A stretch of 64,000 bases of DNA from Eledone cirrhosa (taxonomy: Eukaryota). The notes below the pieces were generated by a model that saw nothing but the letters and a program-made list of their open reading frames with translations, did not search any database and was not told where the DNA came from. Shown in pieces: positions 10,575 to 48,080 of the stretch (position 1 is its first letter; each line of letters starts with the position of its first letter). The DNA lies in the NCBI GenBank assembly GCA_964016885.1, contig OZ024758.1:14818001-14882000 (forward strand), written 5' to 3'. The position numbers and the translations under genes are program-made.

Positions 10575-11027
10575 GCAGAGGTTATATTTAATTTGTTGGG
10601 ATTCAACAAGCTTAAAAATTTTATAACTGATATAAAGCACTCAACAGTTAGTGGAGTAAATACACAATATATTAATAAATGGAAACTATATTTATAAAAC
10701 CATATTTATTTTATTATATATATTTCAAGGGCAACCAAGGTAAATTATGGTGCGCTTTCATCAGATAAAATACAGATTTGGTTTATAAATAAATATTGAC
10801 ATACCCGGAATAAAAGACAACCTTTACAGTTGGAGCTTCCTGGATAGTGAATAAGCTCCAACCGTAAAGGTTGTCTTTTATTCCGGGTATGTCAATATTT
10901 ATTTATAAACCAAATCTGTATTTTATCTGATGAAAGCGCACCATAATTTACCTTGGTTGCCCTTGAAATATATATAATAAAATAAATATGGTTTTATAAA
11001 TATAGTTTCCATTTATTAATATATTGT
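10575..11027. mobile_element. Hammerhead-bearing palindromic Penelope-like (pLTR) element, family A
   Basis: 175-bp inverted arms 10664-10838 and 10853-11027, unpaired left tail 10575-10663, flanked by (AT)n. Confidence 0.75.
10919..10984 (+). ncRNA. Minimal type I hammerhead ribozyme (mirror copy at 10707-10772 -)
   Basis: tattttat-CTGATGA-aagcgcacca..tggttgccctt-GAAA-tatata-TA-ataaaata; stem I pairs over 8 bp. Confidence 0.8.
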
Positions 11028-11336
11028 ATATATATATATATAATGTATATATATATGTATATATATATATATATATAATATTTTGAATGTATATCTATTA
11101 TATAATATATATATATATATATGTGTATATATATATATATATGTGTATATATATATATATATATATATATATGTATGTATGCAAAGTTTTATTTAAATTG
11201 TTGGGTTACAACGAGTAAATATCTATAACTGATATAAAAGCACTCAACAAGTATTTGGAGTATATTTACGATATCGTATATGTATGTATATATATATATA
11301 TATATATATATATATATATATATACATATGTATGTA

Positions 11337-11692
11337 TCATCATCATCATCATTTCATTTTACGTCCGCTTTTCCCTGCTTGCAAGGGTGGGACGGGAACT
11401 GATTCTGGCTTGATTTCTACAGCTGGATGCCCTTCCTAACACCAACCTCATTTACAGTGTGGGCTGGGTGCTTTTTTGCCGTGGCACCTCCAGGTCCACT
11501 TTACAGTGGAGTGATAAGGACCCCAGTCCCAGACCCCAGTCCCTATCATCTCATTTCTACAGCTGAGTAAACTGGAGCAATGTGAAATAAAGTGTCTTGC
11601 TCAAGGAAACAACACATCACCTGGGCTGAGAATTGAACTCACAACCTTTCGATTGCAAGCCCAATGCTCTAACCACTAAGCCATGTGCCTCC
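11337..11692 (-). mobile_element. tRNA-derived SINE with RTE-derived body and tail (family 1)
   Basis: Head ggaggcacatggcttagtggttagagc (A box) and gagttcaattctc (B box); 3' end identical to LINE 9107-9150. Confidence 0.9.
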
Positions 11693-13712
11693 GTATATAT
11701 GTATATATATATATACATATGTATGTATATATATATATATATATATATATATGTATATATGTATATATATATATATATATATATATATGTATGTATATAT
11801 ATATATGTATATATATGTATATATATGTATATATAAGTATATATATATATGTATGTATATATATGTATATATATATATACATATATATGTATATATATAT
11901 ATATACATATATATGTATATATATATATATATACATATATATGTATATATATATATACATATATATACATATATATATATACACACAGATATATATATAT
12001 ATATGTATATATATACATATATATATATATATACACACACACATATATATATATGCACATATATACATATATATATATACACATATATATACACATATAT
12101 ATATACACATATATATATACACATATATATATATACATATATATGTACTCACACACACACATATATATATATATATATATATTTGTGTTTCGTTATTTCG
12201 TGGGCCGAAATTCCGATTCTCGATAATTTATTTATATATATATATATATATATATATATATATGTATTATGTAGATATGGTGTGTGTGTATTATGTATGT
12301 ATATATATATATATGTATGTATGTATGTGTGTATGTATATATAATATATATGTATATATATATATATATGCCTATTTATGAGTGCCCATTATACAAGCAT
12401 AAAATACATACTGAATCCATCTGTCCATTATTTAAAGAGTGTTTATTATTCACAATATTTATATCTGTTTGTGAAGGAGAAAAATGAATTTCTATTGTAA
12501 TGTTTATTAAAGACAAGCTGTGCAGAAAACTTCATGTGTTGTTAAATCTTGCTGGATTCTTCTCCCATTTATTTTTTCTTTGAAAGTCTTTTATGAATTA
12601 GATTTGGAAAATATTGAATTATTTAAGAAGAAACAACATTTTTTGAAAAGTAACAATAAATGAACAAATGACTTTGAATTTTCATTTTCTCTGAGTGTGT
12701 GGATTACAATATACTTTCATGTAACTTGGCCACATACTATGAGAATTTCAATAAAAGAAGTTGTATGTTATTAAACAATATTTTCAAAGTTAGTGCATTG
12801 CTCTTGATGAATTTGTAAGTTTTTAATATGTGTTTCAGTGGTTTAAGCTTGTGCTGTTTGTCTAAATATATTATGAAATGGAAAATAGCTGTTTTGGCTT
12901 TATGCCAGAAGATATTTTCATAAACAAAGCTGCTTCACATTAATATGATGCAATAAATTATATTTTCTAAATCTCTCCTTTACCCATCTCGGCTAGCACA
13001 GAATAAATTAGTTATAATTCTTCCGGATTGTTTGGGTGCCAAGATCTATGGCATTACAATATATTTTTAAAAAGATTTTTTTAATGGAGCTATTAAAGAA
13101 AAAAGAAAAAATACCACAAAAAAATATAAATCATTAATCATTTCCACAGTTTGCTTTGTTTGTTTTTCATCCAGTTTTATATTTTTCTCTGTTTCCTGAA
13201 TAGCATCCTTGAGGGAACAATAATCTCGCCTTGATTTTCTTCTCAAAATATTCCAACACAACCCTTATTTATTCTTAGATAATGTTACATAGCAATCCAA
13301 CTTTTATTTGTTTCTTTGAACTCTATTGCATCTTTCACACTCTATTGTAAAATATTTCTAAGTTAGCATATATCAGTTCAAATTGAGGTTAGCTTTGCTT
13401 TTCATCCTTACAGGGTTGATAAAATAAAGTACCAGTAATACACTGGAATCAATTTAATTGACTAGGTTAGCATATATTAGTTCAAATTGAGGTTAGCTTT
13501 GCTTTCATCCTTATAGGGTTGATAAAATAAAGTACCAGTAATACACTGGAGTCAATTTAATTGACTAGGTTAGCATATATCAGTTCAAATTGAGGTTAGC
13601 TTTAAAATATAATTGTGATGGAAGGTTTTAATATTAAAATAACAATATTAAAATAAGCAGATTTGTATCATAAATCCAGGACGGTTTCAGATAGTTTGGT
13701 AACAAAAGTGCT

Positions 13713-47004: not shown

Positions 47005-47748
47005 TACCACTTTACAGTGTGGGCTGGGTGCTTTTTGTTGTGACTTCTACATGATCACTTTACAGTGTGGGCTGCGTTCTTTTTGTCATGACTCCTACAT
47101 GACCACTTTACAGTGTGGGCTGCGTTCTTTTTGTCATGACTCCTACATGACCACTTTACAGTGTGGGCTGCGTTCTTTTTGTCATGACTCCTACATGACC
47201 ACTTTACAGTGTGGGCTGCGTTCTTTTTGTCATGACTCCTACATGACCACTTTACAGTGTGGGCTGCGTTCTTTTTGTCATGACTCCTACATGACCACTT
47301 TACAGTGTGGGCTGGGTGCTTTTTGTTGTGATTCCTACATGACCACTTTGCTGTGATTGCTGGGTGATTTTTGTTGTGATTCCTACATGACCCTGTAGCG
47401 ACTAGCGCTACCTTGCCCGGGGAGAAAAAACTAATTGGAGTTACTTCCCGTTGAATTCTAGAAGATTCCTTGAACTTCCGGTCTAGGGATTATAAAGGAG
47501 GGAGAAAAGAGACATCTTAGCTTATTTGGCGACCGGTTCTTGGACAGTTCACTCACGAGTGAGTTTGTTAACCTTATTATATTTGTATCAAATTAAATTA
47601 GTGGTTGGCCTGCAGGGCGTTTACCAAAGTAAATAAGCCTGTGACCAATTCACTAAAACCCCTTTACAGTCTTGGCTGGGTGCTTTTTTGTCGTGATTCC
47701 TACATGACCCCTTTACAGTCTTGGCTGGGTGCTTTTTGTCGTGATTCT
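47005..47748. repeat. 45-bp tandem expansion of a SINE internal segment
   Basis: accactttacagtgtgggctgcgttctttttgtcatgactcctacatg-type unit repeated. Confidence 0.9.
47394..47657 (+). mobile_element. Solo LTR (Gypsy-like)
   Basis: TGTAGCGA...TCACTAAA ends, 4-bp TSD ACCC on both sides, internal tataaa and attaaa; interrupts the 45-bp array. Confidence 0.7.
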
Positions 47749-47750
47749 CA

Positions 47751-48080
47751 ACCCACACGAAATCATTCCTCTCAATATTAACATATAAGTGTGCACTCTG
47801 CTTTCATTTTTTATTGCTATCCTAGTGATGCTGGCTAATTCCCTGCTGATGAAGTTACTCTTAACCGATTAAGTAATGTTTAATAGCATTACCTAACTTC
47901 TGTGTATGCCAGTCCAACATGGACTGTTGCCAGCAGACAGGGTAACAGAAACTAGTGCCTAGTCTGGGGGCAGAGAATTAAATTCCCTACCCACAAGAAA
48001 TCGTTTCTCTCTCTATTAATGTATAAGTGTGCACTCTGTTTTCCTTTTTCGTTGGTATTCTAACGATGCTGGCTTAATTA
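47751..48080 (+). ncRNA. Retrozyme-like 238-bp unit (1.4 copies) with type I hammerhead 47840-47970
   Basis: tccctg-CTGATGA-agttactct...agggtaaca-GAAA-ctag tgc ctag-TC-tggggg; acccaca..gtgtgcactctg..gatgctggct repeated at 47751 and 47989. Confidence 0.7.

What the first reader, a model, noticed from the sequence alone, without database searches (positions are those of the whole stretch)
10707..47970. Hammerhead covariation across families: the stem III loop is nearly always a palindrome
Between GAAA and the cleavage dinucleotide the unrelated families have TATATA (10969, 37086, 25770, 33082), TATGTA (38053, 58686), TGCGCA (39202), CAATTG (41530, 25102), CTAG (33934) and TGCA (36781). Stem I and stem II sequences differ completely yet still pair. 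This conservation of structure without sequence argues against chance matches in AT-rich DNA. Established: minimal PLE hammerheads with palindromic stem III loops cleave as dimers (double hammerheads). Inference: these motifs need a partner copy to cut.
Basis: partly seen in the sequence, partly recalled or inferred. Interest (0 to 1): 0.75.

Follow-up and report, generated by a model that had tools for sequence, protein, structure and literature searches.

The report
Palindromic hammerheads in Penelope-like transposon ends
These are end fragments of a known kind of jumping gene carrying an RNA motif predicted to cut itself only when two copies pair through a short palindrome; the pattern is real and already published, most copies here are likely inert, and one very abundant family breaks the palindrome rule.

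Summary
Real, but known. All 11 sites exist; they fall in 7 repeat families, not 11, and two have broken cores. In 1.2 Mb of evenly spaced genome a scan blind to stem III found 132 motifs (0-2 per shuffle); 79 are strict palindromes, 93 counting G-U. Of 19 families 15 are palindromic, and 21 of 23 pairs that only a dimer can form are Watson-Crick. The motifs lie in pseudo-LTRs of Penelope-like elements (PLEs); one full-length Hydra-type copy has a hammerhead at each end. Palindromic stem III and dimer cleavage are published (PMC3088659, PMC4209133). Corrections: the window's partners are mostly inverted and predicted to fold back as dsRNA; short copies contain the uncut site; the omitted family at 38533/38653 is non-palindromic (20,195 of 23,137 matches GAAC/GGAC); the 41530 family has CCGAUGA (98 of first 100 listed), so that site's canonical core is likely a later mutation. 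Extrapolated load is about 0.3 million motifs. The scan noted such elements many times elsewhere in this genome. Cleavage is untested.

The parts
10715..10764 (-). Family A hammerhead, loop TATATA; arm with the extra 3' tail in inverted pair 10657-11036
10927..10976 (+). Family A hammerhead, loop TATATA (10969); arm ends in (TA)n
23061..23091 (+). Decayed family E copy (core CTGATGG), loop CTAG
25100..25217 (-). Family D2 hammerhead, about 100-nt stem II domain, U-U at its base, loop CAATTG (25102)
25768..25812 (-). Family A (subfamily) hammerhead, loop TATATA (25770)
33080..33124 (-). Family C hammerhead, loop TATATA (33082); this copy has GGAA, the family GAAA
33909..33939 (+). Family E (422-nt retrozyme-type unit) hammerhead, loop CTAG (33934), U-U at base of stem II; its inverted twin (33637-33840) begins inside the palindrome
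34649..34703 (-). Family B hammerhead, loop TGCGCA, solo stub starting about 73 nt upstream of the core
36755..36786 (+). Family F hammerhead, loop TGCA (36781); two core changes in this copy
37049..37093 (+). Family A (subfamily) hammerhead, loop TATATA (37086)
37833..37882 (-). Family A hammerhead, loop TATGTA, inverted pair 37775-38118
38011..38060 (+). Family A hammerhead, loop TATGTA (38053), arm with tail
38499..38533 (-).
38653..38687 (+). Family G hammerhead, loop GAAC, G12 lost in this copy
38974..39028 (-). Family B hammerhead, loop TGCGCA, inverted pair 38923-39260
39155..39209 (+). Family B hammerhead, loop TGCGCA (39202); pLTR motif of a Hydra-type PLE; 4,882 exact 61-nt copies in the genome
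41042..41155 (-). Family D hammerhead with family core CCGATGA (U4C), 95-nt stem II domain, loop CAATTG; inverted pair 40902-41674
41424..41537 (+). Family D hammerhead, loop CAATTG (41530); CTGATGA here, unlike its twin and most of the family
47846..47957 (+). Decayed long-stem-II motif, GAAA CTAG followed by TG (not a cleavable triplet); family not followed up
58524..58572 (-). Family A hammerhead, loop TATGTA, arm with tail, inverted pair 58471-58746
58645..58693 (+). Family A hammerhead, loop TATGTA (58686), stem I damaged

Best explanation
These are type I hammerhead motifs in short pseudo-LTR fragments of Penelope-like retrotransposons and their non-coding derivatives, and the stem III palindrome likely lets two same-strand copies in a parent transcript pair into a double hammerhead that is predicted to cut slowly. 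Shown: the motifs, their excess over chance, the covariation, a full-length element with a hammerhead in each pLTR 3,940 nt apart, tandem 422-nt arrays of family E, and the solo or inverted layout of most copies. Inferred: selection acts in the parent elements; the scattered stubs were copied from RNA whose hammerhead had not been cut, and when transcribed in inverted pairs they fold back as dsRNA and are likely inert. Families G (G-purine-purine-C loop) and D (U4C core) likely carry weaker ribozymes that the elements tolerate.
For: 132 motifs in 1.2 Mb vs 0-2 per shuffle. Stem III was not constrained by the scan, yet 15 of 19 families seen in two or more loci are palindromic; among 12 distinct even-length words 21 of 23 pairs too tight for a monomer hairpin are Watson-Crick (binomial p 1.4e-10) and the central pair in 11 of 12 (p 5e-6); all four Watson-Crick types occur at the centre; stem II loops are palindromic in 0 of 13. 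Monomer stem III costs +2.4 to +6.0 kcal/mol for the 4- and 6-nt words, palindromic self-duplexes give -1.7 to -10.5. Within family A (34 rows) 94.4% of cells pair, 8 of 21 pairs change on both sides. L280: family B motif in both direct repeats around a 775-aa ORF with RT motifs and the DKT and CxCX5C marks of the Hydra clade. PLE coding sequence ends 209-310 nt upstream of family G motifs in 5 loci and about 370-385 nt upstream of family D motifs. (TA)5 within 300 nt downstream in 106 of 115 vs 26% at random; 5 of 5 inverted pairs examined have a tail on one arm only. Of 164 copies, 92 solo, 38 inverted only, 34 with a same-strand partner, 23 of those family E. Of the first 100 family B matches, 66 lie in 33 divergent pairs, 16 of which have 88-142 nt between cores, i.e. 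a fixed 5' end near 70 nt upstream of the core. Eight A>G/T>C positions at 6-21% of depth in run X22, under 0.1% in X19.
Against: No cleavage was measured. No pile-up of copy 5' ends at the cut site in any of 8 families examined (rough, weak for family A). Family G, 18 of 132 sample hits, has a loop whose self-duplex is +2.4 kcal/mol (GAAC), and palindromic one-step variants have not spread: all G-N-pyrimidine-C loops together are 201 of 23,137 matches. Family D spread with a U4C core. Stems I and II were required by the scan, so their pairing across families is circular; families share ancestry, so the p-values are not for independent events. Single motifs mostly do not fold better than shuffles (7 of 9 with z above -2). 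Pfam gave no RT or GIY-YIG hit for the L280 ORF itself; the RT profile hit is weak (E 0.027). Run X22's kind is not on record and it is another sample than X19; the editing-like signal was much weaker in family G.
Confidence: 0.75

Rival explanations
1. The ribozymes are passengers: the fold is inherited or kept for RNA-RNA pairing or protein recognition, and cutting matters little for spread.
For: Stubs contain the uncut site and stop about 70 nt upstream of the core; families G and D amplified with non-ideal motifs; PLE hammerheads cleave weakly even as multimers (PMC4209133); PMC8557442 raises the idea that hammerheads parasitise PLEs; 1 of 9 frog retrozyme dimers cleaved (bioRxiv 10.64898/2026.07.22.740005).
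Against: The full catalytic core and a U-H triplet are kept across 38 clusters with unrelated stems, which pairing alone would not need; family G keeps every core base in at least 96% of DNA depth at the positions where the window copy departs.
Confidence: 0.12
2. Scattered solo copies cleave in trans: with about 0.3 million motifs, transcripts sharing a word pair between molecules, so the palindromes act as a family code that cuts host RNAs.
For: Load about 110 motifs per Mb (78-148); 92 of 164 copies are solo; of 39 same-length word pairs only TATATA/TATGTA are cross-compatible; unrelated families share TATATA, CAATTG and CTAG.
Against: Duplexes of 4-8 bp are weak (-1.7 to -10.5 kcal/mol); inverted pairs fold back at -188 to -566 kcal/mol with 87-96% of bases paired; orthogonality is a property of any set of palindromes; no raw reads were available to show ends.
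Confidence: 0.1
3. Chance matches in AT-rich, (TA)n-rich DNA; TATATA is only microsatellite.
For: Three families use TATATA; the elements sit in (TA)n; Rfam finds no hammerhead in the window at its gathering scores.
Against: Shuffled and reversed controls give 0-2 hits against 132; GC-rich words TGCGCA, CGATCG, CTAG, TGCA occupy the same position; 4,882 exact copies of one motif against 0 for the control pattern.
Confidence: 0.02

Closest known systems
Minimal hammerheads of Penelope-like elements (Cervera and de la Pena 2014, PMC4209133; parts 1-2 of 4 and part 2 of the supplement PDF read)
   Same: Type I motif in pLTRs; many families per genome; mostly single, some on opposite strands 100-700 bp apart; palindromic 15.2-16.2 and loop 3 is named as an emergent feature and written into the supplement's consensus; dimer model.
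   Different: Here loops are mostly 4-6 nt rather than 2; families A and B close stem II with A-U and no bulge, D2 and E with U-U; several families have 90-115 nt stem II domains; extrapolated number is far above the 9,000 reported there for Xenopus (different descriptor).
Repeat-type hammerheads of Perreault et al. 2011 (PMC3088659; passages and the legend of Fig. S8 read)
   Same: Fig. S8C legend: palindromic stem III and loop III in several ribozymes, allowing a dimeric fold. U10.1-U11.1 and a viroid U4C variant are described.
   Different: U4C is cited there for a viroid; here it is the rule in a young PLE family (509 matches, 98 of first 100 listed).
Hydra clade of PLEs (Craig et al. 2021, PMC8557442; passages, section 11 and supplement hits read)
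   Same: DKT and CxCX5C motifs, C-terminal endonuclease, (TA)n targets, inverted truncated copy, tail on one end; listed Hydra hammerheads include odd loops such as CCA-A-TGG, like the CCACTGG and CCTCTGG families here.
   Different: Tails here about 55-90 nt, not 30-40; unit 3.9 kb; the family B, D and A stem III words were not found as motifs in that supplement.
Animal non-LTR retrozymes (PMC7229834 passages; bioRxiv 10.64898/2026.07.22.740005 passages)
   Same: Family E forms head-to-tail arrays of about 422 nt; weak palindromic helix III; U-U at base of helix II as in axolotl HHR_Amex2; non-autonomous PLE derivatives.
   Different: Circular RNA not shown here; most other families in the window are PLE end stubs, not arrays.
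Lunse, Weinberg and Breaker, RNA Biol 14:1499 (not held; title and a review's account seen in PMC6765202)
   Same: PLE hammerhead variants cleave as dimers; short palindromic stem III loop.
   Different: Could not check whether it lists non-palindromic loops like family G or U4C cores.

Membership tests
Type I hammerhead ribozyme | Core CUGANGA, GAAA, UH in type I order | tested here: met
   9 of the 11 cited copies (not 33082, 36781); family majorities intact for A, C, D2, E, F, B, G; family D majority has U4C
Type I hammerhead ribozyme | Stems I and II kept by covariation | tested here: met
   Family A: 8 of 21 pairs change on both sides, 0 of 500 shuffles reach the score (relatedness not controlled); across families (partly circular). 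R-scape not available.
Type I hammerhead ribozyme | Match to an Rfam hammerhead model | tested here: not met
   No hammerhead at gathering score in the window
Type I hammerhead ribozyme | Self-cleavage after N17 | not testable with these tools
   Only contigs were available; no pile-up of copy 5' ends at the site
PLE minimal hammerhead (dimer type) | Located in pLTRs flanking an RT + GIY-YIG ORF | tested here: met
   B: both repeats of L280; G and D: fixed distance after the ORF; A: one locus, endonuclease segment 1.6 kb upstream; not shown for C, D2, F
PLE minimal hammerhead (dimer type) | Short palindromic stem III / loop III | tested here: met
   15 of 19 families; not met for G
PLE minimal hammerhead (dimer type) | Bulged base after A9 and G10.1-C11.1 | tested here: not met
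   Seen in G and the CG family; first position across 19 families is A-U 5, U-U 5, G-C 5, other 4
PLE minimal hammerhead (dimer type) | Faster cleavage as dimer than monomer | not testable with these tools
   Only energies:
Hydra clade PLE (parents of B, D, probably A) | DKT motif and CxCX5C linker | tested here: met
   Read in the L280 ORF; CxCX5C in L234 against the description
Hydra clade PLE (parents of B, D, probably A) | (TA)n insertion | tested here: met
   106 of 115 sample motifs, all families pooled
Hydra clade PLE (parents of B, D, probably A) | Placement in the RT tree; absence of CCHH | not tested
   No tree built; the RWK motif reads RWI in L280
Non-LTR retrozyme (family E) | Head-to-tail array of 150-450 nt hammerhead units | tested here: met
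   23 copies at about 422-nt spacing in L230, running into both neighbouring stretches
Non-LTR retrozyme (family E) | Circular monomer RNA | not testable with these tools

The most novel reading that the evidence does not exclude
This genome carries the densest hammerhead load on record (about 0.3 million motifs, roughly one per 9 kb), and its family G, with over 23,000 copies, is an active double hammerhead that pairs through tandem purine-purine mismatches (GAAC, GGAC, GAGC) instead of a palindrome, a deliberately weak setting that lets uncut RNA be copied; family D does the same through a U4C core. The genome then offers a natural series for testing what PLE hammerheads are for.
Probability: 0.25. 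Interest if true: 0.55.

Novelty: new member of a known kind. Interest (0 to 1): 0.3.

Why it matters
The headline pattern repeats work from 2011-2017 and adds only a clean confirmation: ten different palindromic words at the same position. What could matter is around it. The role of PLE hammerheads is still open (PMC8557442), and this genome gives young families with strong palindromes (B), a mismatched loop (G), a variant core (D) and arrays (E), plus evidence that short copies come from uncut RNA. The extrapolated count exceeds the 126,247 motifs reported for axolotl (PMC7229834), though the descriptors differ.

Tried and rejected
Rfam at gathering scores: no hammerhead. DNA search with family B returned nothing, not even itself (common words are skipped); the pattern search then gave 4,882. 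First descriptor (stem II up to 47 nt, first pair required) missed families D, D2, E; replaced. The inverted/tandem counts for family A were inflated by (TA)n matches and were discarded in favour. CTGATCC at 41499 as the core of 41530: rejected, the core is at 41424. My first label 'Penelope/Poseidon' for the parents of B and D was dropped for Hydra. MFE folding of single motifs was mostly uninformative. 5' ends at the cut site: none exact, nearest -6, -5, +2 to +6. Pfam and PDB on the L280 ORF alone: nothing relevant. ESM Atlas unavailable. Sequencing runs were contigs only, so no ends or circles; the 18 small-share rows were not used. Paper searches: hammerhead+octopus, hammerhead+retrozyme+cephalopod gave no census for this group; (double hammerhead, mismatch, non-palindromic; 4 of 5 terms) gave 0; the key 2017 paper is not held, so absence of the family G loop from print is not established. 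File 1 of the PMC4209133 supplement could not be searched; figures are not held.
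Full report
Setting. The window is G000:C19:14818001-14882000 of a 3.0-Gb animal genome, 35% GC with long microsatellites and LINE-type ORFs. Rfam finds only a tRNA-like match, no hammerhead.

Observation. All 11 words lie at the stated places. A strict type I descriptor that leaves the stretch between GAAA and UH free gives 10 hits in the window against 0.04 in shuffles. With decayed copies the window holds 22 (listed). 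The 11 cited sites are 7 families: A (10969, 37086, 25770, 38053, 58686), B (39202), C (33082), D (41530), D2 (25102), E (33934), F (36781). A and B share stem I. The copies at 33082 and 36781 have broken cores while their families are intact. For D and D2 the first half of the core is about 100 nt upstream, so stem II is a long domain.

Genome-wide test. I took 120 evenly spaced 10-kb stretches. A relaxed descriptor (U-U or a bulge allowed at the base of stem II, stem II up to 170 nt) gave 132 hits, against 0-2 in each of 10 local shuffles and 1 in the reversed sequence; 79 are strict palindromes and 93 with G-U. One stretch is a tandem array; without it the counts are 117, 64 and 78. Density is 110 per Mb (bootstrap 78-148), about 330,000 (230,000-440,000) if extrapolated. 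All 266 hits from sample, search loci and window form 38 clusters; of the 19 seen in two or more loci, 15 have a strict palindrome. Among the 12 distinct even-length words, 21 of 23 pairs that are too tight for a one-molecule hairpin are Watson-Crick (p 1.4e-10), and the central pair in 11 of 12. The centre takes all four Watson-Crick forms, and stem II loops, a control, are palindromic in 0 of 13. Caveats: stems I and II were demanded by the scan, and families are related, so these are not independent events. Inside family A, 34 rows show 8 of 21 pairs with changes on both sides, and the only common change in the palindrome's centre keeps a U-G pair (21 U-A, 13 U-G). In DNA-like run X19, two common family B variants turn a wobble into a Watson-Crick pair and none at 5% or more touches the core or palindrome.

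Exceptions. Family G, present in the window at 38533-/38653+, has loop GAAC. A pattern with a free 4-nt loop gives 23,137 genome matches, 20,195 of them GAAC or GGAC; the first 100 listed are 77 GAAC, 18 GGAC, 4 GAGC, 1 AAGC and hold no palindrome. All loops G-N-pyrimidine-C, which include the palindrome GATC, total 201. In a dimer these loops give tandem purine mismatches, +2.4 (GAAC), -1.7 (GGAC), -0.4 (GAGC) kcal/mol against -5.0 for GATC. Odd loops CCACTGG and CCTCTGG resemble published Hydra-clade motifs. Family D has 509 matches; 98 of the first 100 listed read CCGATGA, as does the window's own inverted twin at 41155, so the canonical core at 41424 is likely a later C-to-T change. U4C is a known weakened viroid variant (PMC3088659).

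What carries them. Locus L280 is a full-length element: family B motifs in two direct repeats 3,940 nt apart around a 775-aa ORF. Pfam does not name the ORF; its profile hits a retron RT weakly and aligns over RT motifs with an RVT_1-positive ORF; 13 of 19 homologues carry PF26215. It has the DKT and CxCX5C marks of the Hydra clade of PLEs, a lead I took from earlier scan notes. Family D follows the same ORF type at about 380 nt, family G follows an ORF with a CX4CxxC linker (Neptune/Nematis-like by the description; not placed on a tree) at 209-310 nt in 5 loci. Family E forms arrays of about 422 nt, a retrozyme. PLE hallmarks hold: (TA)5 downstream in 106 of 115 (26% at random), and a tail on one arm only in 5 of 5 window pairs examined.

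Is a partner there? Of 164 sample copies at least 1.5 kb from an edge, 92 are solo, 38 have only an inverted partner, 34 have a same-strand partner, 23 of them family E; adjacent inverted pairs are divergent in 24 of 27. In the window only 37049+/38011+ is a same-strand pair within 1.5 kb. The seven inverted pairs folded are predicted to pair 87-96% of their bases. Run X22 (kind not on record, another sample than X19) shows eight A>G or T>C positions at 6-21% of depth that are under 0.1% in X19, which looks like A-to-I editing of dsRNA on both strands; the signal is much weaker for family G. Copy 5' ends do not pile up at the cut site in 8 families (rough). Instead family B stubs stop about 70 nt upstream of the core: 16 of 33 divergent pairs have 88-142 nt between cores, while the full-length repeat runs further. 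I infer, following note e1-10318339, that stubs are copies of the front end of a linear RNA whose first hammerhead was uncut.

Mechanism. Shown: motif, covariation, location in PLE ends, layout. From established work: unstable helix III hinders monomers and a second copy gives an active double hammerhead (PMC4209133; PMC6765202; axolotl, PMC7229834). Inferred: pairing happens between the two pLTRs of a full-length transcript or neighbours in an array, is slow enough that much RNA is copied uncut, and the stubs in this window are by-products.

Known versus new. The palindrome rule is in the legend of Fig. S8 of PMC3088659, in the text and supplement consensus of PMC4209133 and in the title of Lunse et al., which I could not read. 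The scan has noted such elements many times in this genome and the same palindrome argument in another. Not found in my searches: a hammerhead census for this animal group, or a non-palindromic purine loop of this abundance. Verdict: new members of a known kind, interest 0.3.

Noticed in passing
window 10576-10661, 38110-38190, 39256-39340, 58395-58470; L032: The one-sided 3' tails of families A, B and C share a TACTCC...GAGTGCT-like motif although the rest differs; a possible recognition or priming signal.
   Followed up: no
window 25100-25217, 41042-41537, 47846-47957; clusters F5, F14, F23, F34-F36: A recurring class of hammerheads with 79-115 nt stem II domains and palindromic CAATTG, CGATCG or CACGTG loops.
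   Followed up: partly
window 37394-37736: A 340-nt inverted repeat next to (TA)n with no hammerhead found by my scans.
   Followed up: no
window 33637-33840: The inverted arm of the family E pair begins at the CTAG palindrome, 6 nt upstream of the predicted cut site.
   Followed up: partly
window 43469 (minus) and about 51833-51963 (plus): Further decayed copies: one of cluster F19 with its first core half lost, one of family E.
   Followed up: no
window 6004-9144 (+) and 59030-62483 (-): An intact-looking 1046-aa LINE ORF (endonuclease, RT, PHD finger) and a frameshifted LINE with endonuclease, RT and zf-RVT.
   Followed up: partly
window 11625-11683 (-) and copies near 31600, 35900, 36340, 52300, 63000: tRNA-like Rfam match inside an abundant repeat, probably a tRNA-derived SINE.
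   Followed up: no
L230, L236, L237 (G000:C28:109990001-110020000): Family E tandem array of about 422-nt units seen in all three adjacent 10-kb stretches.
   Followed up: partly
L281 1-1877; L091 5268-6069: A second CTAG family forms an inverted copy plus 467-nt tandem units.
   Followed up: no
window 42157-42833: 36-nt tandem repeat whose unit is partly self-complementary.
   Followed up: no
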